Assembly: GCF_964355755.1 (NCBI RefSeq)
Contig: NC_092673.1
Location: forward strand, 32,733,648-32,797,647
Direction of reading: 5' to 3'
DNA length: 64,000 bases
Source of the DNA: Antedon mediterranea
Taxonomy: Eukaryota; Animalia; Echinodermata
This document shows positions 19,791 through 62,201 of the stretch, in pieces. A program made the position numbers and the translations under genes. Under the pieces are notes generated by a model. The model had not been told where the DNA came from. It ran no database searches and saw only the letters and a program-made list of their open reading frames with translations. Position 1 is the first letter of the stretch. Each line of letters begins with the position of its first letter.

Positions 19791-22700
19791 TTCATTTAAG
19801 ATGGAAGATACATTTTACATACACCAAGTGGTTGAACGTCTAGGACTACAAAAATATTATCCTAGAAAACTAACACGTGAAGAAGTATTTATAGTTTCTA
19901 AAAATGATATTTCACCAGACGAACTCAATGATGATCCAAGCAAAATACCTTGGTACATGCTGCAAAATCTTATAATGTGTAACTATGAAGGAAGATCTTT
20001 TGAGTTAGAAGAAATTGAGCCTTTTGAAGGAAAGGAAATTGCACTCTCTTCTGCTACACAAAAAAGTGGAAAAGAATCAAATCACCGTAAAGTAAGTCCA
20101 ATAGACGCACTAGTAGCTATCTTCTTCTGTTGTGACAACTTTTTAAGACAAATTTTGATTGAAAAATTGTCAACATGTCAGTTAGCTATTCCATTGCTGA
20201 TGCGCGTTACCGACGTACAAAATAAACAATGGGAATTGATTGTGTGGGGAATGAGCACAATCACAAAGAAATGGCAAACGGGTTCCGGTTCATATTGTGA
20301 ACGACCAATGGTGGTAGAAAAGTTACCGATAGTGTCTGCTTTGCGAATAGGAAGACCTAAAATATCAAAATCTAAAATCATCAACTGTGTCATGAATGAG
20401 CAGAAACATGATATTTTCTTTAATTCTGGGTGCAAAGGTGGACATTTAGAACGGAAATTATCAGATGGCTTAATAGAAATATCATGGTACCTTCCAACAC
20501 AGAAATGCATGAATGCTTTTTCAGATGCATTGACTTTTATAAATTTGAGAGGGAACGCATCAGGTTTACATCATCAGACACAATTTTTATCTGAGACATC
20601 ACTGGTCACTATTGCATTCGTGGCATCTGCTGATTATAAAGAGAGTGACAGCAGATTACTTGAATCATTGTACAGACAAAATGGTCATGTAATTTTTGTC
20701 TTAGATGGAACTCCTGGAAAATATTTGAAAACAACCTTTCTTAGGATGGAAAAAAACATACAAAATGTGAATAAACAAGTAAACAGTTTTGTTTCATCAA
20801 TGAAGAAGGAGCTGCAAATAAGCAGATACATTTGGGAATTGCTTGGAATTCATTTTGAAGGAAGAAATCGGAATGCTGTTTGTGATAGGAGTATTGAGAT
20901 GTGCATTGAAGTAGCACAGAAAATGAATTATCATGTTGATGAAATGATACAGGATTGTTTACAGGCTAAACAGGGTTCTGAGGAATTGATCGAGCGTGTT
21001 AGATTAAAAGGAAAACAAAATGAGCTACCTTTGCAGATGGTAACACGAAGCATTGCAGAAATGAAGAGAGAACAGCATCAGCTACTAAAAAATATGCAAA
21101 CTGTAGAATACGTTGATAGACTAAAGAAAGAGATAGACCTACGTAGTAAACAGTTACACATACAGCAAGGTAGATCCGAGCGTTGCGTATATGAGATGTT
21201 TAGAGCCTCATTCACAAACTCTCTTTCAAATAGAAAATATTTCTTTGGTTTTATTAAGATAATGGCTGATCGATATAGCATCGACAGGTTACAACCAATA
21301 CGTGACAAATGGAATGAGTTGTGTGACAAAAGAAAACACGAACCAGAAACATCAAAAGCACAATTAGAATCAATGACAGATAGACTTGAACTTGAACGAC
21401 AACTTTCTAGTGAATCACTTGGATTAGAACACTTCAATCGAGAAGTTGGACAGAATTACGAGATGTCATTAAGTTTAAAATTACGTGACCCCATCGTAGC
21501 AGAAGTTGCTGCTGAAATGTTACTACATGGTTATCCCATTGAGCTGATGGATGGTGATGCAGCCCACGCGCCTCTCACTTGGATTGAAGCCGTTTTTAAT
21601 TCTCTTAAGGACCAGATTGGCAATAAGAAACTATTTGTGTTATCTGTACTAGGCATTCAAAGTAGCGGAAAATCAACCATGTTAAATTCAATGTTTGGCT
21701 TACAATTTGCCGTTAGCGCCTGCAGATGTACTAAGGGTATATTCGCCCAGTTAATCTCACTAGATGAAGATTTAAGAGAAGACACACAATGCCACTACAT
21801 TCTGGTGGTTGACACTGAGGGCTTGTGGTCTCCTGAGTTTGCAAGCATCCATCAGTCCTACTATCGTCATAATGAACTAGCCACGTTTGTCATTGGTTTA
21901 AGTGATCTTACCCTATTAAACATCAAGGGAGAAGATGCAACAGACATGCAAGACACACTTCAAATTGCTGTCCATGCTTTTATGAAAATGGAAAATGTTA
22001 ATATCAATCCAAACTGCTTATTTGTACACCAAAACGTCACTGATGTCTCAGCATCCGATCTGAATGCGACACAACAAAGTATGCGAGAAACTTTAAATAA
22101 AATGACAAAATTTGTAGCCGAAGCCGAAAATTGCAGTGGAAAATATAAATCATTTTCTGATGTCATTAAATTTCATGAAGACAAACACATAATGTACACT
22201 TCAAGTCTTTGGCAAGGAGATCCACCGATGGCGCCCCCAAATCCTGGATACAGCAAATACAGTCTTCGAGTAAAGAAACAAGTCTTGGAAATCATGAATT
22301 ATTCCAAACCTAAAAGTATAGGTGAGTTCACAACATTGCTGTCCGATCTTTGGAGGGCAATATGTCAAAATTCTCTTGATATTCAAGCTTTTTATGCTTT
22401 AAATAAAGAATATGAGAAGCATGCCCGCACATTCAGAAGAAATACACTGACATATAGCGCCAGACTTCAAACAAAATTTAAGAAACTTAGAGCTGAAAAG
22501 ATGAAAAAAGAGGGTGGCAAAATCCTTAACGAGTACATACTGAAGTTACAAAATGACATTGGAGCTTTTCAATTAAGCATGGCGTCATATTTTGAAGAAG
22601 AAGAAAAAGCATGTCAATGGAAATGCAAAATGGATTCACAACGTGACGGTCTTTGTAAAGAAATTGAAAATGAACTGAGGGATGTGTTTAAATCAATGAG

Positions 22701-22825
22701 AAATAAAGCAATTAGAAGAGTTGAAATTGATCCCGAAAATGAAATGAAATTCATTTTGGAACAAGAAAAAACATCTTATAAGGAGTCGAGCACATGTAAA
22801 GAAGAACAAGTTCAAACAGAAACAG
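19791..22825 (+). CDS. GVIN1: VLIG/GVIN1-like very large GTPase exon, copy 1; C-terminally truncated, ends at a splice donor
   Basis: G1 GIQSSGKSTMLN, G3 DTEG, NELATF, LWQGDPPMAPPNPGYS; acceptor ttacag|19791, donor ACAG|GTTAGT at 22825; lacks the ~550-aa C-terminal part present in copies 2 and 3. Confidence 0.85.
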
Positions 22826-31969: not shown

Positions 31970-34900
31970 ATAAGACGGATGCTAAATTTGAAATGTACAA
32001 GCAGGTAGTTGTACAGCTACAACTACAGAAATATTATCCAAGGAAATTGACTCGTGAAAAAGTGTTTGAAGTGTCAGAAAATGTGGTTTCACCAGAAGAC
32101 CTCAATACTGATTCAAGCAAAATACCCTGGTACATGCTGCAAAATCTTATAATGTGTAACTACGAAGGGAGATCATTTGATTTAGAAGAAAGTCAATCTT
32201 TTCATGAAAATGGTTTATCATTTTCTTGTGTTCTACAAGAATCCGATAATAGTAATGAAAACTTCCAAGTAAGTCCTTCTGATGCACTAGTAGCTATTTT
32301 ATTGTGTTGTGACAATTTTTTAAGACAAATTATAATTGAAAAATTGTCAATATGTCAGTTAGCTATTCCGTTACTAATCCCAGTTACGGACGTACATAAC
32401 AAAGAATGGGAAATGATTGTGTGGGGAATGAGCACGATCACAAAGAAATGGCAAACGGGCTCCGGTTCATCTTGTGAACGATCAATGGCGATAGAAAAGT
32501 TACCAATTGTGTCTGCATTGCGATTAGGACGACCTAAGATATCAAAATCTAAAATCGTCAACTGTGTCATTAATGAGCAGAAACATGATATTTTCTTTAA
32601 TTCTGGGTGCAAAGGTGGTAATGTAGAACGGCAATTATCAGATGGCTTATTAGAAATGACATGGTACCTTCCCACACAGAAACGCACAGAGGCTTTTTCA
32701 GATGCACTAACTTTCATAAATTTGAGAGGAAATGCGTTATATTTTAGACGGCAGACGTCATTTCTATCCGAGATATCACTGGTCACCATTGCATTTGTTT
32801 CCTGTTCTGATTTTAAAGAGAATGACGCTGCGTTACTTGAATCATTGTACAATCAAAAAGGTCACGTAATAGTTATCTTAGATAATGTTCCAGGAGAATA
32901 TTTAAAAGAAAGGGTTGAGGAATTTGAGAAAAATTGGGATACACCTACAAAGAAACAAGTAAAATATGTTTTGTCACAAAAAAAGAACGAGCTAAAAATA
33001 AGCCGAGAAATTTGGAGATTTATTGAATCAAATTTTAAAGAAAGCAATCGAAATGTTATACGCAATTGGAGTATTGAGATGTGCATTGCTTTAGCAAAGA
33101 GAATGAATTACCACGTTGACGAAACCGAACGAGATTGTTTGGAAGCAAAACAGAGTGCAAAAACTTTGATTGACCGCGTAGTTTCGGAGGGGAAACAAAA
33201 CGAGCTGCCCTTGCAGGTGGTAACAGTGAACATTGGAGAGACGAAAAAAGAGCAACACCGACTATTAAGAAAAGGAAATATGCAAATAGAAGAATACGTT
33301 GACAAACAAAAGAAAGAGATAGCAGACTTGCGCCGTAAACAGTTAGACCTACACAATCAGAGACCTGAGCATTGCACATACAACGTGTTTAAATCCTCCT
33401 TCAAAGAGTCGCTTATAAAAAGAAAATATTTCTTAGGGTTTGTTAAGATAATGACCGATCGACATAGTATCGACACACTTCAGCCAATACGTAGAGAGTA
33501 CATCAAACAATGGAATGAGTTATGTGACGAAAGAAAAAACGAATCAGGAAAATCAGAATCATTTACGCATTCAACGAAAGAAATACTTGATGAACTTGAA
33601 CAAAAACTTTCTCAGAACTCTCTGGGATTAGAACATTTTAATAGAGAAATTGGACAGAGTTACGAAATGTCATCAGACTTAACATCACTAGCCTTCGAAT
33701 CAGATAATAACGACATAGCAACAGTTACTGCTGAGATGTTAGTACATGGTTATCCCATTGAGTTAATGAATGGTGATGCAACATACGTGCCTCTCACTTG
33801 GATTGAAGCCGTGTTCAGTTCCCTGAAACACCAAATTGGCAATAAAAAAATGTTTGTGTTATCTGTACTAGGCATTCAAAGTAGTGGAAAATCAACAATG
33901 CTGAATGCCATGTTTGGTTTACAGTTTTCCGTTAGTGCAGGCAGATGCACTAAAGGTATATTCGCCCAGCTGGTACCACTAGATACAAGTTTGAAAGAAG
34001 ACACGCAATGTGACTACATTCTGGTGGTTGATACCGAAGGTTTGCGGTCTCCTGAATTTGCTAGTATTCAACAGGACAACAATCGCGATAATGAATTAGC
34101 CACGCTTGTGATTGGTTTGGGTGATCTTACCATAATAAACATTATGGGAGAAAACCCAACAGATATGCAAGACATACTTCAAATCGCTGTTCATGCTTTT
34201 ATAAAGATGGAAAAAGTTAATATTAAACCGAGCTGTGTATTTGTACACCAAAATGTCACTGATGCTACAGCATCTGACTTAAATACGACACAAAAAAGAA
34301 GTATGCGAACAATGTTGGATAAAATCACAACAATTGCAGCTGAAGCAGAGAACTTCAGTGAAAAATACAAGTCGTTTTCTGACGTCATTAATTTTCAAGA
34401 AAACAAACACATAATGTACATTTCCAGCCTTTGGCAAGGAGATCCACCAATGGCGCCTCCTAATCCTGGTTATAGCAAAGGTATTCTTCAAGTAAAGAAA
34501 CAAGTCTTGACATTCATCAGGAATTCTGAACCTAAAAGTATCGATGAATTCAAAATATTTCTGTCCAGTCTTTGGAATGCAATATTATATCAACATTTTG
34601 TATTCAGTTTCAAAAATTCCCTAGAGATCAAAGCCTTTAATGATTTAAATGCAGAATATGTGAAACATGCCCGTACATTTAGAAGAAATACACTGACATA
34701 CAGCCACCAAATTCAAGTTGCATGTAAGAAACTAAAAGCGGATAACATTAGAGAAGAAGGGGAGAAAATTCATCGCCGTTACTTACTAAAATTAAAAACA
34801 GACATCGGTGAATTTCAATCAAGTATGAAGTCTTATTTTGAAAAAGAAAAGAAAGCATGCCAATGGAAGTCTAAAATGGAAACACAACTAGACGATCTTT

Positions 34901-36696
34901 GTAAGGAAATTAAAAAGGGTATAACGGATGCATTTACAGCAATTACAAATAACGTAATTGCAAGGACTAACATTGATGAAAACATTAAAATGCAGGAAGA
35001 AGAAATTGTTAGAAAAGCAAAGAAACTTGCCGACGATTATCAAAATCAAAAACTTTCTGACGAAAATCTTCAAATTGAGTTTGCTAGTAAGTGGAAGACG
35101 TGGGTTTCTGCAATACCAAGACTTATTGATTCTGAAGATGTAAACACGTCTTTTCAAAGAATCACTGGAGAATATTACACAGAAAACCATAGATCAGACG
35201 TTACTCAGGAATTTCGGTTTGGCTTTACCAAAACAGAGGTAGTGGAAGATGATTTGGATTTTGGAGTAATTCAGTCTATAAAATCTATGTTCAAACCCTT
35301 AAACAAGTCAGCACTTGTAAATGAGGCTAATTGCACTAAACAAAATATTCTAGAAAATCTTAAAAAACAAATCTCAGATCATGCTCAGAATGGTGAAAAC
35401 TATTCTCATCAATTTGGATTTGACATTTTTAACTCACTGTCAAATGAACTTAAAGAGATGAAAGTGGATACGAAGTTTGGACTTAAGAAGAAAAAAGTAA
35501 TGCCACTAGTCCTGTATAATTTCAATGTTGCCTTAATACCAAGCCTTAGAGAAATGCAGGAAAAGTACAAACGCGAAAATGATCCTAGATTATACATGGA
35601 GTCTCAGAAGGAAAAATTGTGGCAAATGTTTAAAGAAAAGTGTGAAGGTCTTCACATAACTGTTAGAGGGGCGTCAGCTATATCTTGGGAGCTTACATGT
35701 GCTATTAAAACATCACTTCCAGAGAAATGCAAACTTGGAATAATCGACCATCTAAGACATTCTCCAAATAAAGGGTTTTCTAGTAAGATGTCTCTTCATG
35801 CATGGATGCTGATAGAAATGGCAGAGAAAGGCGATTTTAAATCATTTGTACCGTATTTGTCTAATCCAGTCCAGTGCATCAAGACGTTCACATCTGAAGT
35901 AATAAAGAAAATGTGTTTACAAGAGAATGAAATCGGCACTTCTTTATTAGAAGAAATACACCATCGTAAAGTCCATGACACCATCATTGTATTAAGACAG
36001 GTTATTTCTACTTTAAGTGCGAAAACTACTGTCGTCACAGTAAAGACTTTGTGGTCATCCTTAGTCGAACACATTGACGATAAAGAGTTGTGTCTCAAAA
36101 CAGATATTTTAATTTTTGATGAGGACAGGGGTCTGATTTTGGATGAACTTTGTGATAGCTTGTTATTAAAACTAGAGTCTATCGAAGAAAGCAGAATTAA
36201 AGCTTATGATGATAGCATTTTCAGTCAAATAAGCACATCCTGTTTTGAATTCTTCACAGCTGATCTACTAGCTTGTCAGGAGATGTGTCCATTTTGTAAG
36301 GCACTATGTGATCTTAATGGCAAACATGATCACCATCGTACAAATTGTCACAGACCACAGGGGATTGCCGGATTTAAACATGAGGAATCTAAACGACTCG
36401 TCTCGGAATTATGCACAACTTCAGTAATGTCTAATAATAGCTACTTTTTTAATCAACATACGAACGGTAAATGGATAAAATACAGAAACTATAGGAGTGT
36501 GAATCCCTACTACGATTCATGGAAAATAGAACCAGAAGCAGGCGAATCAGAGATGTTTTGGAAATGGTTTATGGCAACATACAATACTCAACTTGCTGAA
36601 CACTACATTTGTAACGAGGCCGATATACCAGATGGATGGAAAAGTGTTACAAAGGAAGAAGCAACGGGAGATATGAAAAGGTTGTACGACATTTAA
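31970..36696 (+). CDS. GVIN1: VLIG/GVIN1-like very large GTPase terminal exon, copy 2, intact
   Basis: 1567-aa ORF; GIQSSGKSTMLN, SAGRCTKG, DTEGLRS, RDNELAT; C-terminal CPFCKALC...HHRTNCHRPQG and FWKWFMA; phase-1 acceptor tctctttag|31970. Confidence 0.92.
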
Positions 36697-44150: not shown

Positions 44151-44685
44151 AGATGTATTGTCCCTTTGACTAATTAAAAAAAAAAAAAAAATAACAGATT
44201 TCGAAAAAAGGTGTGTCATTTTGAAGTATCATAATAGTTATTAACTATCACCAAAAATTTGTCGAAAAAAAAAATAATTTAACTGAAATACAGACGTTTT
44301 TTTGTTAAAAAAATAACATTGACTTCCAGTCAAAGTTTTCGATCAAAACATATCCCATAATGAAACGCGCTTGTTTGGCTACTCTGTATGCATAATCATA
44401 AAACTTCTTCACGATCTGTGTGAAAATACCTTCTCAACCGTGACGAGTTGTAAACAATCCTAATTAGCATATGCATAATGCGTACTCGTGGTTTGAAATC
44501 TTTGTTTACTTTCGCTCATGACGATTTTCCAGACGAAATGTAATCAAACTAATTTACCTGTTAATTACGTAAAGTTGTTGCTTTTGGCATGAATTTTCGA
44601 CTTAAAGTAAATAACTTTAATATTACTTTGATATGGCCAATTTAAATTTAGAATATTTTGACCTTCATTTTTTTGTGTTTCAAGG
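44151..44685 (-). mobile_element. Kolobok-like non-autonomous element, copy 2
   Basis: TTAA|AGATGTATTGTCCC at 44147; body is the reverse complement of ~17010-17495. Confidence 0.65.
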
Positions 44686-44817
44686 CGTAGTATAAAACAA
44701 CGACAAACGCGTTGGTTTGCAAAAAAAATGTACCTATGTTGTGGTAAAAGTAAATTGTACACTACAAAAATGTAATTTTTTTCCAAAACATTTGTTTTAC
44801 AGGTATAAAAAGCTGAT

Positions 44818-45349
44818 ATGGATGATACTGAACTTAAACAAAAGTTTTGGGAATTTAAAAATAATTTCAGTAAACACTATGATGGTCACAAATACCGTTG
44901 GTTAAAATTCTGCCTATTTAGTATAATAGATGTATCTGATCTTACCGATGAACAGTTTACAGCGATCGTATTATTAAACAGACTGGAGGATTTCGGTGAT
45001 ATCACCTTTACCAACATTAGTCTTCTGCTAGAAATAGCAAAACTATCACGTTTAAAGGGGGCAAAAGATCTTGTTATTCAGTATATGAGAGTTAACAAAA
45101 TTCAACAAACTTCAGATAAAGAAAAGTTGTCACCTTTCCGAAAACGACTTTTTAATACCATCCGTCAAGTTGGACAAGACGACATACAGAAGGTTATTGG
45201 GCACTATCAAATGCAAATCAGTTCAACGAATATGTGGGACGTGGTGTTTCGACTGGAACGAGACACAGAATTAGCAGATGAAGAAGATAAAATAAGGACG
45301 TTTGCTGGTCTCCTTAGTACATTTGCAAGGAATATACTACTTGATATTT
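44818..45349 (+). CDS. Exon encoding tandem death-effector-like (death-fold) domains; N-terminus of a predicted DED-linker-VLIG gene
   Basis: Acceptor ttttacag at 44802, ATG 44818, phase-1 donor T|GTATGT at 45349. WLKFCL...AIVLLNRLEDFGDITFTNISLLLEIA...DLVIQY follows the DED helix pattern; the second unit LSPFRKRLF...WDVVFRLER resembles the second DED of caspase-8/cFLIP. Confidence 0.7.
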
Positions 45350-45551
45350 GTATGTTTCGTATTTCAAATATATATATATTTTAAATCCTATAAAAGCCAA
45401 TTCTGTTTTTTAGCTGCTCTTTGTTTAAGTCAGTAAAATAATTCTCATGAACATTGTATTGATTGTTGAAATCGACCTATTCTATAAATTAGGTAAGCAA
45501 TATTTATTTGTCTATTCTTCCTTAATTGTTGTATGCTTTTTGTTGTTGCAG

Positions 45552-45659
45552 GTACTCAGATACCAATACAACTAAAAAGACGACATCCTGACTCTGAAGA
45601 TGAGCCATCTGCACAAGTAGCTTCTTGTGAAAGTCGACATTTGAAAGTTATTGACGATG
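45552..45659 (+). CDS. Internal phase-1 exon of the DED-VLIG gene
   Basis: ttgcag|...G|gtaaac; 108 nt, stop-free: TQIPIQLKRRHPDSEDEPSAQVASCESRHLKVIDD. Confidence 0.65.
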
Positions 45660-46728
45660 GTAAACTGATAATATCAATAGTTCTTGATAGAAAAAAATAA
45701 ATTGAAATTTGGCTTAAAGGAAAACGTTGTAAAAGTGTCAATATGATACTAAGGTCTGTATCACCACCCGAAAGGGGACAAATTGCCATCCAACTTCTCT
45801 AGACCAGAATTTTCCGTAAATTACGAATATGGAAGGTAATCGATCAGGATATGAAGCGTTTTCGATAAATAAGGGGTCAAAGTTCAAAATTTACCAATAT
45901 AAAAACATGCTATATCTCTGGAAATTCTGGACGTTGTGAGATAATTTTGGTGTCAAATGTACTCAACTAAAATTAGCACCCTGGAAATTACTTCCGAAAG
46001 AGAAACTTTTCACAAAATGAGACCAATTGTTTCTATATATAAATTTACGTAAGGCCAAAATACGGTAAATCGCGCGTTACTCGATGGTATATAAAGTTAG
46101 TTAGAATCTCGGTACTGATTTTAACGACCTGATGTAACCCTGTTTACTAATTAAATTGAGTTAGATAATTAGTTATTGACGATTAAAACGAATTTTGGGT
46201 TCAACGATCTGCCCTAAATAGGGGTGTTTTCCGATCGTGGTATACACTGTATTATGGATGTCCTCATGAAAAATACCTGCACACAATAATACGAGGATGC
46301 TTCGCATTTTCCTATCTCCTCCTACGATAATTGTTTTTAATAGCTGAAAACCGGTTGAACAGTTCGTGTACAGTATCATATTGTTGAAGACAGACCGATT
46401 TTCTTTATAAAATACTATTTTGATAGATTTAATATACGTTTATACAAATGTATTGATTTGCGATGAAAGGAACATTCCAATCTCTCAGACTCCCAGTTTG
46501 TAGGTACATTTGTGAGCCCTTGGTTTAAAGAAGTAGGTAAATTTATGGGCCCTTGGAGAATAAAACTTATATATAGTATTGCAATACTTTGACAATATTG
46601 TAAATACTGAACGTAGGCTATTAACCATTTTTGGTCGCCATTTGAATCGAAATTGTCTTACTGTGAATGCGGTTACTGTTAGATATATACACAAAATATA
46701 CAAAGAACATGTATTACTGCGGGTAGAT

Positions 46729-48210
46729 TACTGACAGTTGCTTCTCAACGTTTGTATTAATTAATAATTATAAAAAATATAAATGTCGTAGAGGTGTATC
46801 GTTACATGTACTTTACTATTTCAATCGACTATAACAGGGACAGTTTTAAAAAAGTATTATAAATCGTAAATGTTTTACTGGGTATATTATTTTTAGGCCT
46901 ATAAAACATTTAAAACAATATTTCGTTACTGAGTGGATAAAGAATATATTTAAAAATTGTTCTTCCCATCCTCTTCCTCATCCCTCAACTCTAATGTTAT
47001 ATACAAAACACAAATTGGGTTTGTTTAAATGAGTTCAAATAAAAAAATTAGACTCATTTTTTATACAAAGGCCTAATTCCCAGGGTGCTAATTTTACATA
47101 AATCATTGTGTCTATTTATTCGTTTCTGTAAACGACAATATAGTCCTGTGGTACGTACATTTTTTACGCTGAAATTACACTGTATTCGAGAGAACCATCT
47201 AGTGAGCAAAATTTAAACAAACTTAATTTGTGTTCTGTATGTAACATAAGTTTGAGCGATGGGGAAGAGGTTGGGTGCAAAGAGGAACAAATTTTAGTCG
47301 CGACTCAATATTTCACTATGTCGGTCGGTCTGTCGGTCTGTCGGTCTGTCTGTCGGTCCGGTATCACTATGCGTTTTATCGCTTTCTGACCTTATCTTGA
47401 TATCAGTTTAATCTAGCTAAGTCAATTTTTCACAGTATATTCCTTATGGCCAGAAATCGATGTGGTTATGTTTTCACGGTGCGCAATAAAAAATTACGCG
47501 GTCTACGCACGATTTAACGAAACAACGTTTGTAATCATATCTTCACAACCATGAATCACAATTAAATAAAATTTGGTACTCATAAATGTCAGGGCATATA
47601 TCATCATGGCAATACAATTACGTGCGTAGCGCGCATTCAAAATTTATTTTCGATAAAATAAGAGTACGTTTCAGGCAATTTTAGGCGTTTACAAAATTGC
47701 CATGAGTGCGCAGATTTTTGCGCGCGCACTGCGCGTTAAATGTTGTCTCGCACTCTTTTTGCCCGATTTCTGTTTTCTTGACTTACTTTTCAACTCGAAA
47801 TTACCTTATACGAGCACGTCAAAAGTGACAGGCTACGCACGTGTAAATTAAAAAAATATCAATGTTTTTAAACATTTCAACATTTTTAAACATGTTCAGT
47901 AATTTCGGTCAGTTGGTAGGTTGGTCGGTCGGTCGGTAAACACTAATGAGCGACTGCAGCCATCTATATGGCCTTGTTAAATATAGTCTTTATCCATTTA
48001 GTAACGAAATATTAATTGTTTTCATGTTTTACAAATAATATACCACTAAACACAGTAAAACATTGCGATGTAATACTTTGTTGAAACTGTCACCGTCATA
48101 GTCGATTGAAATAGTACAGTACATGTAACGATACATCACTACGACGTTTATATTTTTTTTTGTAATTACAGTATTAATCAATACAAACGTTGAGAAGCAA
48201 CTGTCAGTAA
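46729..48210. mobile_element. Foldback element with long diverged inverted arms
   Basis: 46729-46955 is the reverse complement of ~47976-48210; the arm continues at 46955-46990 versus 47250-47292, so the right arm is split by the HINE insertion. Confidence 0.75.
47292..47978 (+). mobile_element. Helentron-associated non-autonomous element (HINE/DINE-1-like)
   Basis: 5' ttttAGTCGC, GTCG/GTCT microsatellite, sub-terminal GCGACT, 3' stem-loop gccatctatatggc followed by cttgtt; inserted in a T-run. Confidence 0.75.
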
Positions 48211-48584
48211 TAAAGTTTATTTGTATATGTGTTTATATAATGCAAAACAATTTGTGAAAAACACACCTATTCGCTTTAAACGACAATAAATAATTATCTA
48301 GCTCAAGGGTCTGTACTTTTCCATCTTTCTTGTTCTTAATTTTCGCATACTCTTTAATCTCTTGGAATTGCCACATCAATTATTTAACACTCTTTCTACA
48401 TATTATATACTATATAATGTCCGTTCTTCGTGCTTTTATGTCTCTATCACGTTGGACATTGGATCACATGATCTTTATTTCTTCATTTTCCATTACAACT
48501 TCTAGATGATGTTCGTATCATTTCACATTAACTTCGAAGTTTAACTTCAGTTACCAGACACTGTCGTAACACCTTTTAAACTGA

Positions 48585-51330
48585 GTTACTGCAGTTATGT
48601 GAAATCGGGTCACAAACATGTGGCTACTGAGGAAATTATCATTATGGGTCAAGATTCAAGAAAATTCTCTATCTAATCAATATTAGGTGAATCCCTTAGC
48701 TACACAGATTTAACATAAATACAAACATATAATTATTGTTATTCTTTTACTAAACAGATAACTTAGACCATAGAAGTAAATCAGCTTCTAACGAGGTGAA
48801 TCAAGAGGAACAAAAATCGCCGGTGTTAACAGAAGAAGGTGAGTTGCTGCAGTTATGTGAAATAGGGTCACAAACATGTAGCTACTTAGGAAATTAACAT
48901 TATGAGTCAAGATTCAAGAAAATTCTCTATCTAATCAATATTAGGTGAATCCCTTAGCTACACAGATTTAACATAAATACAAACATAATTATTGTTATTC
49001 TTTTACTAAACAGATAACTTAGACCATAGAAGTAAATCAGCTTCTAACGAGGTGAATCAAGAGGAACAAAAATCGCCGGTGTTAACAGAAGAAGGTGAGT
49101 TGCTGCAGTTATGTGAAATAGGGTCACAAACATGTAGCTACTGAGGAAATTAACATTATGAGTCAAGATTCAAGAAAATTCTCTATCTAATCAATATTAG
49201 GTGAATCCCTTAGCTACACAGATTTAACATAAATACAAACATATAATTATTGTTATTCTTTTACTAAACAGATAACTTAGACCATAGAAGTAAATCAGCT
49301 TCTAACGAGGTGAATCAAGAGGAAAAAAAATCGCCGGTGTTAACAGAAGAAGGTGAGTTGCTGCAGTTATGTGAAATAGGGTCACAAACATGTGGCTACT
49401 GAGAGGAAATTATAATTATGGGTCAAGATTCAAGAAAATTCTCTATCTAATCAATATTAGGTGAATCCCTTAGCTACACAGATTTAACATAAATACAAAC
49501 ATATAATTATTGTTATTCTTTTACTAAACAGATAACTTAGACCATAGAAGTAAATCAGCTTCTAACGAGGTGAATCAAGAGGAAAAAAAATCGCCGGTGT
49601 TAACAGAAGAAGGTGAGTTGCTGCAGTTATGTGAAATAGGGTCACAAACATGTGGCTACTGAGGAAATTATAATTATGGGTCAAGATTCAAGAAAATTCT
49701 CTATCTAATCAATTTTAGGTGAATCCCTTAGCTACACAGATTTAACATAAATACAAAAATATAATTGTTGTTATTCTTTTACTAAACAGATAACTTAGAC
49801 CATAGAAGTAAATCAGCTTCTAACGAGGTGAATCAAGAGGAAACAAAATCGCCGGTGTTAACAGAAGAAGGTGAGTTGCTGCAGTTATGTGAAATAGGGT
49901 CACAAACATGTGGCTACTGAGGAAATTATAATTATGGGTCAAGATTCAAGAAAATTCTCTATCTAATCAATATTAGGTGAATCCCTTAGCTACACAGATT
50001 TAACATAAATACAAACATAATTATTGTTATTCTTTTACTAAACAGATAACTTAGACCAAGGAAGTAAATCAGCTTCTAACGAGGTGAATCAAGAGGAACA
50101 AAAATCGCCGGTGTTAACAGAAGAAGGTGAGTTGCTGCAGTTATGTGAAATAGGGTCACAAACATGTAGCTACTTAGGAAATTAACATTATGAGTCAAGA
50201 TTCAAGAAAATTCTCTATCTAATCAATATTAGGTGAATCCCTTAGCTACACAGATTTAACATAAATACAAACATATAATTATTGTTATTCTTTTACTAAA
50301 CAGATAACTTAGACCATAGAAGTAAATCAGCTTCTAACGAGGTGAATCAAGAGGAAACAAAATCGCCGGTGTTAACAGAAGAAGGTGAGTTGCTGCAGTT
50401 ATGTGAAATAGGGTCACAAACATGTGGCTACTGAGGAAATTATAATTATGGGTCAAGATTCAAGAAAATTCTCTATCTAATCAATATTAGGTGAATCCCT
50501 TAGCTACACAGATTTAACATAAATACAAACATATAATTATTGTTATTCTTTTACTAAACAGATAACTTAGACCAAGGAAGTAAATCAGCTTCTAACGAGG
50601 TGAATCAAGAGGAACAAAAATCGCCGGTGTTAACAGAAGAAGGTGAGTTGCTGCAGTTATGTGAAATAGGGTCACAAACATGTAGCTACTTAGGAAATTA
50701 ACATTATGAGTCAAGATTCAAGAAAATTCTCTATCTAATCAATATTAGGTGAATCCCTTAGCTACACAGATTTAACATAAATACAAACATATAATTATTG
50801 TTATTCTTTTACTAAACAGATAACTTAGACCAAGGAAGTAAATCAGCTTCTAACGAGGTGAATCAAGAGGAACAAAAATCGCCGGTGTTAACAGAAGAAG
50901 GTGAGTTGCTGCAGTTATGTGAAATAGGGTCACAAACATGTAGCTACTTAGGAAATTAACATTATGAGTCAAGATTCAAGAAAATTCTCTATCTAATCAA
51001 TATTAGGTGAATCCTTTAGCGACACAGATTTAACATAAATACAAACATAATTATTGTTATTCTTTTACTAAACAGATAACTTAGACCATAGAAGTAAATC
51101 AGCTTCTAACGAGGTGAATCAAGAGGAACAAAAATTGAAGGTGTTAACAGAAGAAGGTGAGTTGCTGCAGTTATGTTGAATAGGGTCACAAACATGTAGC
51201 TACTGAGGAAATTAACATTATGAGTCAAGATTCAAGAAAATTCTCTATCTAATCAATATTAGGTGAATCCCTTAGCTACACATGTTTAACATAAATACAA
51301 ACATATACTCATTTTATTGTTTTACTAAAC
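48585..51330 (+). repeat. Ten near-identical ~258-bp exon-intron units, each with an 81-nt phase-1 exon
   Basis: Exons start at 48758, 49014, 49272, 49532, 49790, 50046, 50304, 50562, 50820, 51076; aaacag|AT...GAAG|gtgagt; peptide DNLD(H/Q)(R/G)SKSASNEVNQEEQKSPVLTEE. Confidence 0.92.
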
Positions 51331-51862
51331 AAAAAATTTAGACAAAGCAACTAAAAAGCTTCTGATTATATAAACAAAGACGAACACAAACTACTGAGGA
51401 AATTTTCATTATGAGTTAAGATTCTAATAAATTCTCTATCAATATTAAGTTAATCTCTTAGCTATACAAGTTTTACATAATACGAACATATAGTTAGGTT
51501 TTTTTTGTACTAAAACAAAACAACTAAAACAGCTTCTAAGAGTTTTCAACCACATGTAGAGAGAATCAAGAACTTCCCGAACAGGATAACATTTTTATTT
51601 TTTGACTAAACAGACAATTTAGATCAAATGTACAGGTGCAGTTGACAATGTTAACAAAAACCCCTCTTTTTAGAATTACTACTTTCACTGATTATTGAAA
51701 TCGCTGTAGCTCGCAGGCTTGCTTATCCATCCTTAGACATCCAGTACATAAAGATAGATAAAATACACATTAACGATCCTAATATAAATAAATTCTAATT
51801 AAGTGAAAGTATAGCCTATTACTACAGTAGCAAATTATTCTTAATTTAGTCAAATTTCAGTA

Positions 51863-51983
51863 CCCAAGGAATTTAATATATATAATGTTCTTTCAATTTC
51901 ATAGCAAATATATTAGTATATTCAAGATACTAATATATTTGCTATGAAATTGAAAGAACATTATAAATATTAAATTCCTTGGG
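51863..51983. repeat. Near-perfect palindrome: 57-bp arms, 7-nt loop
   Basis: Arms 51863-51919 and 51927-51983 are reverse complements with 1 mismatch. Confidence 0.92.
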
Positions 51984-53610
51984 ATGTTATGTACCTGTAG
52001 CTACTCAGCAGCAGTGTCAGTGCAGCACGCCAACATATTATTTTTAGTAGATAGGCTAGGCCCTAGTATTAGTAATCTATATATAAATTATGGTTAATTC
52101 TGACATAGGCGAGCACAATGCAAAAACTTCGGTACAAATCTCCGCCTTGAATACCTACCTTATCTATCTGAGATGTACCGCGAAACGTAGATTTGATAAC
52201 ACTAGTGTTCACATCGACGCTATTGTTCCACATTTCTATCTTAGGAAGATATTATAAAGAATTTTTTAACAAAATTTATGATTTCAACATTAGATTTTCA
52301 TCTCAATTTCAATTCTTCCCGGTCAAAGTAATTTCCGGGTTTAAGATAAGTTCACCTTGCAACAACCTGGTTTCAAATGTTTTCTCTCTTTTATACACAA
52401 GGGAGAAGTTAAAATAATAGATTTGACCCTAAAGGTGACTGGAAACTGGCACTTTCCATCAATCAATACAGTGTCCCTTTGGAAGACGAAAAAAAAATCA
52501 GGTAGTAGGACTGGAGCTTAAGTTTGCCATTAGTCCGCATAGCCATTTCAGTTTTTTGTTTATTTTAAAACATACCGCGCGTGTGTGAAGGTACAGTATA
52601 TAAATAATAGGAATTATACTGCAAATTAATAAAGATCAAATTAAATATACGCCATAACGAATCAGAATATATTGTGGGGAATAGTATTATATAATTACAT
52701 AGGGACATTTGATGATAAGACATTTTTCGAGTGAAATCCTGATAGCTGAGTTTTATTGAGTAAGCTTGCAGGAATAACTGTAGGCTATCTTCCTGTGTCC
52801 CGTTAGGACCGAGATGTCTGCCCATGTTGCAAGCCGTAATGTATTCTTTCTTGGGCCCACTCTGTTACGGCAGTTAGTTTCAAAAGATGGTTAAATTAAA
52901 TAATGTATTAATAATTATTAGGATGGTATTCATTTGAATAAACGCCTCTCCAATAAAACATCACTTTGAATAATAACCCCCCCCCCCCAAACCCAACTAT
53001 CTAATAAACGTCCATCCACATATTTATAATAACACAATTATACTATTTGTAGTAGAATTCACCGCACTGTTATCTACAATTTACAAGCATTTGTTATTCT
53101 TCTTTAGCACTGTTCATATCTATTAGAGGATTTCATTTGATTATCAATGTTACCATATTATTAAAACTAAAATATTTAACATATATCCCTCGAATAAGCA
53201 CCTCCCTCAAATGACCTCCGCCTCCCAAAAGGGCCCTACCAAACAATAAAAACTATACTTTAACATTTTATTAATCACCTAAAACACTGTGAAACAAACT
53301 AGTTTAGTTTTACGAATGTCAAGCATTTTCAATATTAATGGTAACCGACAGAAAACGTATAAGGAGAACATTATCATTCCGAGAACCATCGTCTACACTT
53401 CCTAGAGGAGGAGCAAGCGAAGCGAGTTCACCCTCTAGTAATACTTAATTAATACTGTACTAATTGATTTGACCAAAATCTAATCAAACTAGCCTTGAGC
53501 CTAGGCTAGTAGGCCTATGTACTAAATTGTATGAATCAAAATATGAATGAATTATCTTGGCCTAACTAGTTATATGTATATATATTTATACAAGATGTTA
53601 TTTTTTAAAG

Positions 53611-53680
53611 GTTTTGAACAACTGAATTCAAAAACTGAAAGTACACCAACACCGCGGAAGACCGAATTATCGACTGTAAA
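53611..53680 (+). CDS. Penultimate exon (phase 1 in, phase 2 out) of the DED-VLIG gene
   Basis: ttttaaag|GT...AA|gtaagt; GFEQLNSKTESTPTPRKTELSTVK; phase matches acceptor ttccag|53781. Confidence 0.65.
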
Positions 53681-53780
53681 GTAAGTTAATATATGGAAAT
53701 TATTTACATTTTGTTACAGATTTTTTATGTTGGAGATTACCGGTATCATATTATATTTAACACTTTCGTTAAACTTCCAG

Positions 53781-56700
53781 AACTTTAGATAAAAAGGAAG
53801 ACAACATTGGCATACACCAGCAGATAGTTGAACACCTAGGACTAAATAAATATTATCCCAGAAAACTAACTCGTGAAGATGTATTTGTAGTCTCCAAAAA
53901 TGTGATTACACCTGAGGAACTAAATGATGATCCAAGTAAAATACCATGGTACATGTTGCAAAATCTTATAATGTGCAACTACGAAGGAAGATGTTTTGAT
54001 TTAGAAGAAAATGAATCATTTTCACTTTTTTCTCTTCTACAAGAAAAATCAAATTACAGTAAAAAAAACAGTAAAGTAAATCCAATTGACGCACTAGTGG
54101 CTGTTTTCATGTGTTGCGACAATTTTTTAAGACAAATTTTGATTGAAAAATTGTCGATGTGTCAGTTAGCTATTCCATTACTTATGCCAGTTACAGACGT
54201 ACCTAACAAAAAATGGGAACTGATAGTGTGGGGAATGAGCACAATCACAAAGAAATGGAAAACGAGATCAGGTATGTCTTGTGAACGATCAATGGTAGTA
54301 GAACGTTTACCAATTGTGTCTGCTTTGCGATTAGGAAGACCTAAGATATCCAAATCTAAAGTTATCAACTGTGTCATTAATGAGCAGAAACATGATACTT
54401 TTTTTAACTATGAATGCAAAGGTGGAAATTTCGAGCGAAAATTATCAAATGGTTTATTAGAAATGGCGTGGTACCTTCCTACGCAAAAGGGTCCTTTCTC
54501 GGAGGCACTATCTTTCATAAATTTGCGAGGAAATGCATCTGATTTCCAAATTCAGACACAATTTTTGTCTGAGATATCACTGGTCACTATTGCATTTGTT
54601 TCCTGTGCTGATTTTAATGTTAATAACGCCACGTTGTTTAAGTCACTGTACAGACAAATGGGTCACATAATTTTTATCTTAGATGGTATTCCTGGAGAAG
54701 GTTTAGGAAAGGTCTTGCGTGAAATTCAAGAAAATGTTAAAGATATGAACAAACAGGTACGATATATTAAGTCATTAAACAAAAATGAACTTAAAATAAG
54801 CGCAGAAATTTGGAAACTGCTTGTATCTAATTTTGAAGGAAGTAACCGTAAAATTGTTGGCCTACATGATAGGAGTGTCGAGGCATGCATTAAGGTAGTA
54901 GACAAACTAAATTTCCACGTTGACGAATTTGATTGTTCACATGAAGCAAAAAACAAAGTTGGCATGTTACTTAAGATTGTCAAAAAAGAGGGGAAACAAA
55001 AGGAACTACCCTTGCAAATGGTAACAGTAGAAATTGGAGAAAAAAAAAAGAGCAGCATCGGCTACTAGGAAAAGGAAGTATGCAAAATGAGGTGTATGTT
55101 GAAAAGGTAAAGAAAGAAATATACGACTTACGCTGTTGGCAATCAAGTCTACACAGGGAACGCAGCGAACGCAGTGAAAGCACGTATATGTTATTTAAAG
55201 AGTCATTCAAGTACAAGACTATTGAAAGAAAATACTTCTTTGGATTTGTTAAGATAATGGCCGATAGATATAGTATTCAAAAGCTACAGCCAATACGTGA
55301 AGAGTACATAAAGAAATGGAATGAATTGTGTGACCACAAAAAAGACAAACCAGAAACATCTAATCCACCATTGTACACAATGAAAGATAAACTTGATGAA
55401 CTTGAACAGAAACTATCTCGTGAATCTGTAGGATTAGAACATTTCACTAGAGAAATTGGACAGGATTACGAAATTTTTTCAGATTTGAAACTGCCAACAA
55501 ACGAATTTGACAGTGATCACTTACCAGAAGTTACTGCTGAGATGTTGCTACATGGATACCCCATTGAGCTGATGGATGGTGATGCAGTTCATGTGCCTAT
55601 TGCTTGGATTGAAGCCGTGTTCAACTCTCTTAAAGACACCATTGGCAAGAAAAAACTGTTTGTGTTATCTGTACTAGGCATTCAAAGTAGCGGAAAATCA
55701 ACCATGTTAAACGCCATGTTTGGTTTACAATTTTCCGTTAGCGCTGGCAGATGTACCAAGGGTATATTTGCTCAGCTGGTATCATTAGATAACAGTTTAA
55801 GAGAAGAAACACAATGTGACTACATTCTGGTGGTTAATACAAAGGGGTTGCGCTCTCCTGAATTTGCCAGTATTCAACAAGACACCAGTCGTGACAATGA
55901 ACTAGCCACACTTGTGATTGGTTTGGGTGATCTCACCATAATAAATATTATGGGAGAAAACCCAACATACATGCAAGACACACTTCAAATTGCTGTCCAT
56001 GCTTTTATGAAAATGGAAAATGTTAATATTAAACCGAGTTGCTTATTTGTACACCAAAACGTCACTGATGTTACAGCAACTGATAAAACTACGGAACAAA
56101 AAAGGAGTATGCGAGAAATGTTGGATAAAATTACAAAAATTGCTGCGGCCGAAGAGAATTGCAGTAAAAAATCATTTTCTGATGTCATCAACTTTCAAGA
56201 AAACAAACATATTATGTACATTTCCAGTCTTTGGCAAGGAGATCCACCGATGGCTCCACCTAATCCTGGTTACAGCAAATGCATTCTTCAAGTAAAGAAG
56301 CAAGTCTTGGAAATCATGAAGGATTGCAAACCTAAACGTATTGATGAGTTTCCAACATTGCTGCGCGATCTTTGGAAAGCAATATTATGTCAACATTTTG
56401 TAATCAGTTTTAAAAATTCTCTTGAGATTCAAACATTTAATGCTTTGAATGTTGAATATGTGAAGCATGCCCGTACATTGAGAAGAAGTGCACTGGAATA
56501 CAGCTACGGACTTCAAATTGAATGTGAGAAACTCACGGCAGACGAGATGAAAAAAGATGGACAACGAATCCTGGAAAGTTACGTACATAAATTAGAGAAA
56601 GATTTTCACGGATTTAAATCAAGCATGGCACATTATTTTAGAAAAGAACCAAAAGCATGTCAATGGAAATTTAAAATAGACATTCAAGTCAGTGGTCTAT

Positions 56701-58526
56701 GTGAGGAAATAAAAGCTGAACTAAATGACGCATTTACATCTTTTAAGAATAAAATTACTGGAAGAGCTAAATTCGATGTCGATATTAAAAGGTACAAAAC
56801 AGGTATCTATGAAAAAGCTAAGACGCTTGCCGACAAGTACCGAAATCAACAACTACCTGAGGTACAACTTAAAAAAGAATTCGCTACAAACTGGGAAACG
56901 TGGGTTTCAGACATACCAGGTGGTGATGAACACGTAGATGTACACAAGTCTTTTCCAGAGATTGCTGACAAATGTTTCTTAGAAAACGATAAATCGGAAG
57001 TTACAAGTATATTGCAGTCTAAGAACTTTGATACTGGCGTACTTGAAACGGATTTGTCTTTCGATACCAATCGCCCGGTTGAACAAAATAAAGCAATAAA
57101 AGTTGCTAAATCATTATTTAGTAAATTTGTGTTCGGTGGCAGTAAAGCACATGTGAATAACGCTAATAGTATTAAACAAAGCATTGTAGAGAAATTTAAA
57201 ACAAAAATCACAAAGCTTGAACAGAGCGGAAGAAGTTACACTGTACAACAAGGATGCGACCTTCTTAGCGACTTAGCAAATGAAATAGGAAAAATAGAAA
57301 TAGATGAGAAAGTTCACGTTACCGCGAAAGGAAAGATTCGAATAGCCTTGTGTAATTACAAGGTTAAACTCTTACCCATTTTGGCAAAGATGCAGGAACA
57401 CTACAAACGCGAAAATGACCCGAGAATATACATGGAGTGTCAAAAAGAAGGATTGTGGCAAATGTTCAAAGAAGAATGTGAAGATCTGCACATAATTGTT
57501 AAAGTGGCGTCGGCTACATCTCGATGGATTTCAAGTGCTATTAAAACAGCTCTTCCAGAGAAATGCAAACGTGGAGTAATTGACAAACTGAAAACCAACA
57601 AAGGTTTTTCTAGCAAGATGTCTCTCCATGCATGGATGCTGGTTGAAATAGCAGAAAAGGGCGATTTCCAATCATTTGAGAAGTACTTATCTGATCCAAT
57701 AAAATGCATCAAAACGTTCACATCTGAACAAATAGAGAAAATGTGTTTTCAGAAGAATGATAAAATCAGTAGTTCTGTAATACAAGATATATATCATAAT
57801 AAAGTTCAGGACATATTAAATGGATTAAAGGAAGCTATCCGTACATTAAGTGCGAAAGGTTCCATCACAATGAAATTATGGTGGCCAACCTTTCTTAGAC
57901 ACATTGATAAAGAGTTATGCGTCAAAACGGACATTATGTTTTTTGATGAGGACAGAGATCTGGATTTGAAAAGCCTTAGCGATACACTGTTATCGGAATT
58001 AAACAAAGTTGAAGATAAAATAATTAATGCATATGACGACAGAATAGTCAATGAAATAAGCAAATCTTGCTGTGAGTTCTTTACAGCTAATCTACTAGCT
58101 TGTCAGGAGGTGTGTCCATTTTGTAAAGCACTATGCGATCTTAATGGCCCACATGATCACCATCGGACAGATTGTCACAAACCGAAAGGGGTTGCCGGAT
58201 ATAGGTGGAAGAAGTCTGAAAAACTCAATTCAGATATATGCACAACTGCACTATTGTCTGATTATAGTTTTAGGAATCAACATACGAATGATGAATACAT
58301 TAACTACAGAAACTATAGGCCTAGAAGTGTAAATGACTACTACGCATCGTGGAAAATTGAACCACTGGGATGCGAGGCAGAGACGTTCTGGAAATGGTTC
58401 ATGGCAACATACAATACTGAACTTGCTGAACACCACAATGCTAAAGAGGCTGATATCCCAGCCGGATGGAATGATATTACAATGGAAGAAGCGAAGGATG
58501 ATATGAAAAAATGGTACGACATTTAA
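53781..58526 (+). pseudogene. GVIN1: VLIG/GVIN1-like terminal exon, copy 3, with a -1 frameshift and altered G3 motif
   Basis: ORFs 53902 and 55080 are colinear with copy 2; A10 run at 55040-55049 is one base short (may be a sequencing error); G3 reads NTKG instead of DTEG. Confidence 0.85.
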
Positions 58527-58573: not shown

Positions 58574-59680
58574 TAGTCCATGGGATTTAGCTAAAAAATG
58601 ACCCTTTTCTCACACAAATTGCAAGAAAAGGTTTTTTTGATGAAATGTGTTCTTTAGACCCTACTGAACACATTTATCAACGTTAGGACATTTTTCGACA
58701 ACGGGAAGTAGCCTAATTTGCATAATTAAAAATGGCCGCCATTTTTAATAACGTACTCTGTATCTTGGAAACCGCTAGTCACAGATACTTAATTATGGTG
58801 TCAAAATCGTTAGAATATATGTTTTCATATTCACTTTATTGAAAAAGTTTGTCCAAAAATGAATGGAAGTGTTATTTCTAACATTATTGACCTTTGACAT
58901 TGAATTCTCATATCTCAGCAACCACTAATCGGAGATATACAAATTAGGGCTTGAATTGTTCAGAAACTACACATTTATATCCAGTCTAATGGCATGTTTT
59001 TGCAAAAAATGGCGGATTCTAACATTATTGACCTTTGACCTTGATTTATCATATCTTAGCAACCACTAATCTGAGAAACACACAATATGGCTCAAACTGT
59101 TCAAAAACTACATATTTATATTTAGTCTAATGGCATGTTTTTGCAAAAAATTGCCGATTCTAACATTATTTACCTTTGAACTTTGCACTACATAAAATCG
59201 CATAACTTTGAAAATATTGTACATATGAAATTATTTTTAGTGTCAAATTGTTCAAAACATACATGTTTCTATAGAGTCCAATGACACATTATGTCAAATA
59301 ATGGCCTATTGTATGGTTATTAACATTTGAACTATATTTGAAAAGGATTTAAACCCGGAATCTTCTTCATGTGGACATCCATTAAAACATGTGATTTTGG
59401 CACTCTAAAATGTAAGAGTTGTAACGTTGACTTATTATGTTTAGTTTAAAGTAGGCCATGGTACATTAAATTTATAAGCATAAACTATTGCATTCATCCA
59501 AAAACTGCCTACAAGTTTACACGTTTGTTTATTTTTAATTATGCAAATTAGGCTACTTCCTGTTGTCGAAAAATGTCCTAACGTTGATAAATGTGTTCAG
59601 TAGGGTCTAAAGAACACATTTCATCAAAAAAACCTTTTCTTGCAATTTGTGTGAGTTAAAAGTCTAAATCCCATGGACTA
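58574..59680. mobile_element. Non-autonomous DNA transposon with ~160-bp TIRs and 3-bp TSD (Academ-like)
   Basis: cta|TAGTCCATGGGATTTAG ... CTAAATCCCATGGACTA|cta; internal ~141-bp repeats containing ttctaacattattgacctttga; superfamily tentative. Confidence 0.8.
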
Positions 59681-61582: not shown

Positions 61583-61807
61583 AGCTTGGTTCCCACTAGA
61601 ACGTAACGCAAGGACGTAAACGCAATTTAAGCTTGGTTCCCACTAGCGACGCAACGCAAGGACGTAACGCAACGCAAGTGAATTGACCAATCACAAGCGA
61701 TGGCTTATTGGCTTGTGATTGCTAACTGGTATGACTTCGCTTGTCATTGGTTAAAACGCTTGCGTTGCATTTACGTCCTTGCGTTACGTTCTAGTGGGAA
61801 CCAAGCT
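61583..61807. mobile_element. PIF/Harbinger-like MITE in the minisatellite, copy 1
   Basis: TIR agcttggttcccactagaacgtaacgcaaggacgtaaa / tttacgtccttgcgttacgttctagtgggaaccaagct; an extra left TIR at 61630. Confidence 0.7.
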
Positions 61808-62201
61808 TACCTATTATCCACACTCGTACGTTGTATTCCTCGTATATTACTATTATCTATACTCGTACGTTGTATCCCTCGTATATTACTATTATCCACA
61901 CTCGTACGTTGTATCCCTCGTATATTACTATTATCCACACTCGTACGTTGTATCCCTCGTATATTACTATTATCTATACTCGTACGTTGTATCCCTCGTA
62001 TATTACTATTATCCACACTCGTACGTTGTATCCCTCGTATATTACTATTATCCACACTCGTACGTTGTATCCCTCGTATATTACTATTATCTACACTCGT
62101 ACGTTGTATCCCTCGTATATTACTATTATCCATACTCGTACGTTGTATCCACTCGTATATTACTATTATCCACACTCGTACGTTGTATCCTTCGTATATA
62201 A

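What the first reader, a model, noticed from the sequence alone, without database searches (positions are those of the whole stretch)
44818..58526. Predicted tandem-DED / copy-number-variable linker / very large GTPase immune protein
Seen: a phase-consistent exon chain 44818-45349, 45552-45659, ten 81-nt exons, 53611-53680 and 53781-58526, giving about 2,090 aa once the homopolymer frameshift is corrected. Established: DEDs nucleate caspase-8/FADD/cFLIP assemblies, and GVIN/VLIG proteins are interferon-inducible GTPases in vertebrates. Inference: a GTPase sensor or scaffold directly fused to a death-fold signalling module through a long disordered acidic tether. This would be an NLR-like design using VLIG as the oligomeriser in an invertebrate. 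I do not recall this architecture being functionally described, though death-fold/VLIG fusions may exist in databases.
Basis: partly seen in the sequence, partly recalled or inferred. Interest (0 to 1): 0.8.

Follow-up and report, generated by a model that had tools for sequence, protein, structure and literature searches.

The report
Feather-star giant GTPase with tandem DED
In a feather star (crinoid), an exon predicted to fold as a caspase-8-like double death-effector domain lies in frame ahead of a repeated acidic spacer and a giant immune-type GTPase exon, and they likely form one pathogen-triggered cell-death scaffold, although no transcript joining the two ends was seen.

Summary
The exon chain is real, in phase and gives 2,088 aa. 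The first coding exon models confidently as a tandem DED (pLDDT 95; caspase-8 TM 0.75, Z 16.5). The last is a GVIN/VLIG core. The DNA is Antedon mediterranea (named NCBI proteins match it). Another individual's contig has one extra base across the A10 region, so the frameshift is an error or an allele. NCBI has only the 1,148 aa after the break. A second predicted tDED-GVIN (XP_071948946.1) lies on the same chromosome and is not the sister of this gene in either domain tree. Caveats: no listed contig joins DED to GTPase. An RNA-like contig (about 92% identical) splices exon 1 to exon 2 but runs past the donor into sequence that in the window gives a 226-aa DED-only protein. The tDED exon is a freely shuffled crinoid module, and death-fold fusions to the related GBPs are in print. 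Verdict: new variant of a known kind; fusion about 55% likely; interest 0.45.

The parts
44803..45349 (+). Tandem-DED exon (acceptor 44803, ATG 44818, 177 codons, phase-1 donor)
   Evidence: AF2 with 38-row alignment pLDDT 95.4; Foldseek caspase-8 tDED TM 0.72-0.75; VIA Z 16.5, rmsd 2.9, 159 aligned; X1 contig joins 45349 to 45552
45552..45659 (+). 108-nt linker exon (phase 1-1); read past its donor it reaches a stop ending at 45700 with AATAAA at 45696, giving a 226-aa DED-only product
   Evidence: X1 contig runs 45552-45760 without using the donor
48758..51156 (+). Ten 81-nt phase 1-1 micro-exons (27 aa, Glu/Ser/Asn-rich) in a 258-bp tandem array (48582-51343)
   Evidence: exon and intron copies differ by 3.0% and 2.2%
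51157..51630 (+). Three decayed array units, one 83% like the first exon of the other array
53611..53680 (+). 70-nt exon (phase 1 to 2)
   Evidence: X1 depth in this bin fits the exon being carried by the contig that enters 53781 (arithmetic; inference)
53781..58526 (+). GVIN/VLIG giant exon: URGCP domain about 54076-54948, URGCP_GTPase about 55047-56276, helical region, Cys/His-rich end (58113-58178)
   Evidence: Pfam 241 and 406 bits; 65% identical to Antedon GVIN P0001; X1 contig alignment ends at 53781 with 261 further bases
55040..55049 (+). A10 run: one-base frameshift in the assembled sequence
   Evidence: X1 contig has 742 letters over 741 window bases with one gap
55677..55847 (+). 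G1 GIQSSGKS intact (55677-55700); G3 degenerate NTKG (55836-55847)
   Evidence: 17 of 20 homologues have DTEG
19801..22825 (+). Paralogue g1: truncated GVIN ending in a phase-1 donor that resembles the end of a micro-exon
   Evidence: identical to part of XP_071948942.1
22953..25520 (+). Older array of 8 homologous acidic micro-exons (87-96 nt, all multiples of 3, open in one frame)
31970..36696 (+). Paralogue g2: intact full GVIN exon with DTEG, phase-1 acceptor

Best explanation
This is likely one spliced crinoid gene in which a shuffled exon predicted to fold as a tandem DED is joined, through a recently expanded acidic micro-exon spacer, to a GVIN/VLIG giant-GTPase core, and the protein would likely act as a pathogen-triggered platform that clusters its DEDs to recruit DED-bearing cell-death enzymes. 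Shown: exon anatomy, domain identities, splicing at three boundaries, and the frame-restoring base in another individual. Inferred: (1) a single DED-to-GTPase mRNA (about 55%); (2) the GVIN core oligomerises on a microbial or membrane target, by analogy to GBPs; (3) the 330-aa spacer (80 D/E against 39 K/R) is a flexible tether; (4) clustered tDEDs nucleate a DED assembly with Antedon proteins that carry the same module, such as the tDED-caspase XP_071950579 or the tDED-TIR XP_071950587; (5) because G3 is NTKG, this allele likely hydrolyses GTP poorly and may depend on co-assembly with intact paralogues such as g2.
For: Phase-perfect chain of 2,088 aa. tDED fold with the family's conserved positions kept. 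The GVIN exon is spliced to upstream sequence in X1, and in the window its first Met lies 58 codons inside the exon. The micro-exon family belongs to GVIN N-termini: XP_071948937.1 carries about 8 such repeats before its GVIN, and the older array is open in one frame in 8 of 8 copies while 7 of 8 have stops in both other frames. A second predicted tDED-GVIN (P0017) lies on the same chromosome and is not sister to this gene in the GVIN tree or the DED tree, which fits repeated recruitment. The same tDED heads NACHT (8 of 66 hits scanned), Roc/COR (4), caspase (1) and TIR (1) proteins. Precedent: amphioxus DED-GBP and zebrafish CARD-GBP4, which binds ASC (PMC6400534).
Against: The one long X1 contig on the DED exons ignores the exon-2 donor and runs through the position of the stop at 45700. 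It is 93% and 88% identical in its two pieces, against 98-99.8% for X1's long GVIN contigs, so it may be a paralogue. Many module relatives are short proteins with no other Pfam domain. NCBI's model starts at 55080, after the break. P0017 is a gene prediction that lacks stretches of the core, not transcript proof. G3 is degenerate, and X1 shares the Asn. The older array sits before g2 with no DED exon in the window. No functional data exist for any step of the mechanism.
Confidence: 0.45

Rival explanations
1. Two neighbouring genes: a 226-aa tDED-only protein (a cFLIP-short-like regulator) ending at 45700, and a GVIN with its own 5' exons, with or without the acidic repeats.
For: X1 contig splices 45349 to 45552 and reads on to 45760; stop and AATAAA at 45696-45700; short tDED-only relatives are common; X1, X2 and X3 have a base change giving an ATG at 53824, near the start of the GVIN exon; several Antedon GVIN models begin at an in-exon Met.
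Against: That contig is 7-12% diverged from the window; exon 2 keeps a phase-1 GT donor that matches the downstream exons; P0017 shows the same domain order at another locus; read-through of a donor is also what an alternative short isoform of a fused gene looks like.
Confidence: 0.3
2. A decaying copy in a birth-and-death gene cluster: the fusion existed but this haplotype is a pseudogene.
For: Frameshift, G3 D-to-N and E-to-K, a D-to-Y change at 55968, three decayed array units, and many truncated paralogues (P0009, P0015, P0016, P0017).
Against: No stop in 2,088 codons apart from the one-base break; X1 carries a frame-restoring base and spliced contigs; X2 and X3 show Asp codons at 55836 and 55968 in all listed depth (these may include paralogues); the tDED keeps its conserved residues.
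Confidence: 0.15
3. The fusion is real but acts as a brake or an NF-kB scaffold, like cFLIP or vFLIP: a hydrolysis-poor GVIN that caps DED assemblies or sequesters active paralogues.
For: cFLIP and vFLIP tandem DEDs match nearly as well as caspase-8 (Z 12-14 against 15-16.5); degenerate G3; the second DED has no obvious Phe-Leu pair in helix 2 (motif recalled).
Against: The same second-DED form is shared across the module family, including the NACHT proteins and the caspase, so it does not mark an inhibitor.
Confidence: 0.1

Closest known systems
GVIN1/VLIG-1 and URGCP family (Pfam PF25496, PF25683)
   Same: URGCP plus URGCP_GTPase core, weak RHD3/atlastin-type GTPase similarity, helical and Cys/His-rich C-terminal region.
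   Different: Lacks the roughly 880-aa N-terminal region of the 2,460-aa form (P0014); carries tDED plus spacer instead; G3 is NTKG; interferon induction cannot apply in the vertebrate sense (recalled: echinoderms lack interferons).
Amphioxus DED-GBP and zebrafish CARD-GBP3/4 fusions (PMC6400534, section 5 and passages read)
   Same: Death-fold module fused to a large immune GTPase; zebrafish GBP4 recruits ASC through its CARD.
   Different: The GTPase here is GVIN, not GBP; a tandem DED lies N-terminal behind a long repeat spacer; no function tested.
Mammalian CARD6 (recalled; the primary papers were not held; only their titles were seen in a reference list)
   Same: As I recall, an N-terminal death fold (CARD), an acidic stretch and a URG4/VLIG-like region; the titles say interferon-inducible and NF-kB-modulating.
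   Different: CARD rather than tandem DED, and as I recall no complete VLIG GTPase. Not tested here.
Antedon mediterranea XP_071948946.1 (P0017)
   Same: Same tDED module (43-44% identical) N-terminal to a GVIN core, same chromosome.
   Different: 1,217 aa, no spacer, core incomplete, DTEG intact, named only 'very large GTPase 1-like'; not the sister gene.
Caspase-8 / cFLIP tandem DED
   Same: Fold over the whole 177 aa (TM 0.72-0.75; Z 16.5).
   Different: 16-21% identity; below Pfam DED detection on its own.

Membership tests
GVIN/VLIG/URGCP | URGCP domain followed by URGCP-type GTPase domain | tested here: met
   241 bits (cut-off 27) and 406 bits (cut-off 55)
GVIN/VLIG/URGCP | Full-length similarity to named GVIN proteins through the C-terminus | tested here: met
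   65% over 1,585 columns to P0001; nests among the Antedon GVINs, 100/100
GVIN/VLIG/URGCP | Intact G1 motif | tested here: met
   GIQSSGKS at 55677
Catalytically canonical GVIN GTPase | G3 DxxG (DTEG) | tested here: not met
   NTKG at 55836; 17 of 20 homologues DTEG, one DSEG, one DTKG, one unmatched. X2 and X3 show an Asp codon, X1 does not. Filed as a GVIN-family member with doubtful catalysis in this allele.
GVIN/VLIG/URGCP | GTP binding and hydrolysis; induction by interferon or infection | not testable with these tools
   Needs biochemistry and challenge RNA-seq
Tandem DED (caspase-8/cFLIP type) | Two death folds packed as a tandem DED | tested here: met
   pLDDT 95.4; top Foldseek and VIA hits are caspase-8/cFLIP tDEDs over residues 9-177
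Tandem DED (caspase-8/cFLIP type) | Sequence-profile membership (PF01335) | tested here: inconclusive
   No hit for the window protein; 28 of 38 alignment members hit at E<=0.01, most below the curated cut-off; family profile hits the caspase-8 prodomain at E 0.0018
Tandem DED (caspase-8/cFLIP type) | Homotypic DED binding and filament formation | not testable with these tools
   Needs binding or filament assays
NLR (STAND) receptors | NACHT/NB-ARC ATPase with LRR sensor | tested here: not met
   No NACHT, NB-ARC or LRR hit on the DED exon or the two GVIN frames; 'NLR-like' is an analogy only

The most novel reading that the evidence does not exclude
Crinoid GVINs are an NLR-like receptor family in which the giant GTPase is the sensor and oligomeriser and the N-terminal slot takes swappable effectors: tandem DED (recruited at least twice), a kinase, or even a second GVIN, joined by an expandable micro-exon tether. 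This copy is a hydrolysis-poor, DED-bearing helper. It would give the first direct output pathway for the little-studied VLIG family: DED-dependent caspase or TIR activation.
Probability: 0.3. Interest if true: 0.72.

Novelty: new variant of a known kind. Interest (0 to 1): 0.45.

Why it matters
VLIG/GVIN is one of four families of interferon-induced GTPases (PMC8286824, passage read). No solved structure matched its GTPase-to-C-terminus part (0 hits at E<=1), and I found no mechanism in the papers searched. Domain fusions in amphioxus and zebrafish pointed to the GBP-inflammasome link (PMC6400534). A natural tDED-GVIN fusion, with candidate partners in the same genome, is the same sort of clue for GVINs and is cheap to test. 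If the DED and GVIN exons prove to be separate genes, what remains is an ordinary lineage-specific GVIN cluster.

Tried and rejected
Single-sequence fold: pLDDT 39, unusable. Pfam on the DED exon alone: no DED hit. Word-based homologue searches with the DED exon found 0 of 726 (311-2,000 aa) and 0 of 184 (97-310 aa) candidates; weak, since the exhaustive search found 68. Exact look-ups: 1 of 5 window ORFs is in the collection. Complex prediction of window tDED with the tDED of P0082: no verdict, score 0.00, alignments not used. No run is on record as RNA; X1 is only guessed to be RNA, though its contigs join or stop at splice sites. In X1 no contig lay on the first 81-nt exon, and the depth on exon 2 equals the read-through contig alone, so about 190 upstream bases of X1's GVIN contig are unplaced; the tables were cut and a hole proves nothing. 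No listed contig bridges DED and GVIN. My first read-through put the N in the wrong A-run (36 stops) and was redone. A crude search for further exons in 45700-53600 returned none, but it also missed the known micro-exons, so it is uninformative. Codon-position differences in the older array (0.26/0.12/0.22; 74 synonymous, 238 non-synonymous) show no strong amino-acid constraint, only frame keeping. A recalled MACPF-like motif in P0014's N-terminus got no Pfam or PDB support. No whole genome was held. The protein atlas gave no answer. Literature searches listed no paper on DED-GVIN fusions or crinoid GVINs; subscription papers and supplements (for example of Shenoy 2012) were not seen and could list such fusions. 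Earlier-scan look-ups were empty. PMC5086354 (passages) held nothing relevant.
Full report
Observation. The ten 81-nt exons lie in a 258-bp tandem array of 10.7 copies. As assembled the chain stops at residue 936. With an N in the A10 run at 55040-55049 it reads 2,088 aa to the stop at 58526. Residues 178-507 form a 330-aa low-complexity spacer with 80 D/E and 39 K/R.

Source. NCBI protein XP_071948942.1 of Antedon mediterranea matches the first GVIN paralogue of the window at 99.9%. The ORF 55080-58523 is itself an NCBI protein on a contig of the same length as the other Antedon GVINs. The window is therefore from this crinoid.

N-terminal exon. Pfam does not detect it, but an exhaustive search gave 68 relatives. 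Of the 20 whose names I looked up, 19 are Antedon and 1 is Anneissia. 28 of 38 aligned members hit Pfam DED at E<=0.01, and their profile hits the caspase-8 prodomain across the DED1-DED2 junction (E 0.0018). AlphaFold2 with this alignment gives pLDDT 95.4. Foldseek's top hits are caspase-8 and cFLIP tandem DEDs (TM 0.72-0.75); VIA gives Z 16.5, rmsd 2.9 over 159 residues. The tandem DED is thus well supported as a prediction. The module is promiscuous. Among 66 of the 68 hits scanned it is fused to NACHT (8), Roc/COR (4), kinase (3), NHL/TRIM (2), caspase (1), TIR (1) and GVIN (1), among others.

GTPase exon. URGCP (241 bits) and URGCP_GTPase (406 bits) are both present. G1 is intact, but G3 reads NTKG where 17 of 20 homologues and both window paralogues have DTEG. 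From general knowledge of P-loop GTPases the G3 Asp helps hold Mg2+, so hydrolysis is likely impaired (inference). Run X1 shares the Asn. X2 and X3 show the Asp codon in all listed depth, which may mean a polymorphism or paralogues.

Frameshift. An X1 contig 98% identical to the window has 742 letters over 741 window bases (54570-55310) with one gap, and all four runs laid show C at 55041. The gap's exact place was cut from the table. The frame is thus open in at least one other individual. Whether the window's A10 is an assembly error or an allele needs the source reads.

One transcript or two? For one: X1 contigs join 45349 to 45552 and end their alignment at 53781 with 261 further bases, and the depth fits inclusion of the 70-nt exon (inference). 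The micro-exon family belongs to GVIN N-termini. XP_071948937.1 has such repeats before its GVIN, and a second, older array at 22953-25520 has 8 exons, all multiples of three and open in one frame. XP_071948946.1 (P0017) is the one protein found by both the GVIN and the DED search: a predicted tDED-GVIN. It is not sister to this gene in the GVIN tree (this gene pairs with P0016, 100/100) or in the DED tree (P0017 pairs with P0030, local support 98; FastTree only, no clade test). That fits two separate recruitments. Against: the only long contig on the DED exons continues through the exon-2 donor to 45760, which in the window gives a 226-aa DED-only protein. That contig has 40 differences in 549 bases and 25 in 209, more than X1's long GVIN contigs, so it may be a paralogue or an alternative short isoform. 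P0017 is a prediction with gaps in its core. I put the fused transcript at about 55%.

Mechanism. Best reading (0.45 overall): the GVIN core assembles on a microbial or membrane target, as GBPs do (analogy; PMC8286824 and PMC6400534, passages read). The tether lets several tDEDs meet and nucleate an assembly with Antedon proteins that carry the same module, namely a caspase (XP_071950579) and a TIR protein (XP_071950587). With a weak G3, this allele may ride on intact paralogues. All of these steps are inferred. A sea-cucumber Gvin1-like transcript changed after Vibrio challenge (listed as down, -2.67; PMC4519954, passages), and frog GVIN transcripts rose after chytrid exposure (PMC4481470, passages). 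These support an immune role for the family only.

Comparison and novelty. Death folds fused to large immune GTPases are known: amphioxus DED-GBP and zebrafish CARD-GBP, the latter binding ASC (PMC6400534, section 5 and passages). I recall that mammalian CARD6 joins a CARD, an acidic stretch and a URG4/VLIG-like region, but could not obtain the papers. Ten literature searches listed nothing on DED-GVIN. It is a GVIN-family member by domain content, not an NLR, and not a canonical GTPase in this allele. Other crinoid GVIN models start with a kinase (P0011) or acidic repeats (P0002), so the N-terminal slot looks exchangeable.

Verdict. Real anatomy, a confident tandem-DED prediction, an unproven fusion, and a new variant of a known design. 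Interest 0.45; 0.72 if the swappable-effector reading (probability 0.3) holds.

Noticed in passing
window 19801-36696: Truncated GVIN g1, the 8-exon older array and intact GVIN g2 can be spliced in frame into a protein of about 2,830 aa with two GTPase domains. NCBI ends its g1 model after the first micro-exon, and no protein matching g2 was found.
   Followed up: partly
window 154-14066: Maverick/Polinton element: 574-bp terminal inverted repeats 99.5% identical, probable 6-bp target duplication with one mismatch, pPolB interrupted by in-frame stops, packaging ATPase, adenoviral-type protease, capsid-like ORFs, integrase with chromodomain, PC4-like ORF.
   Followed up: partly
window 17550-18645: Three small exons that the NCBI model XP_071948942.1 joins to g1, encoding a hydrophobic stretch; possibly a fragment of an unrelated membrane-protein gene.
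   Followed up: no
P0011 (XP_071948948.1): Predicted protein kinase fused N-terminal to a GVIN core, in the clade nearest to this gene.
   Followed up: partly
P0020: A distant GVIN with N-terminal MACPF_SNTX (weak), stonustoxin-helical and FN3 Pfam hits: another N-terminal module type.
   Followed up: no
window 31855-31915: Remnant before g2 resembling the 70-nt exon, with a GC donor and an in-frame stop.
   Followed up: no
window 60743-63998: 39-bp satellite of about 83 copies with two 47-bp-unit insertions; a related sequence lies at 38077-38651 behind g2.
   Followed up: no
window 44198-44685, 45750-48390, 51940-53590, 58574-59680: High-copy repeats (very high contig depth), likely non-autonomous transposons in the introns and flanks; 44198-44685 recurs inverted at 17009-17494.
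   Followed up: no
window 30997-31055: CAG/CAA triplet run of about 20 units between the older array and g2.
   Followed up: no
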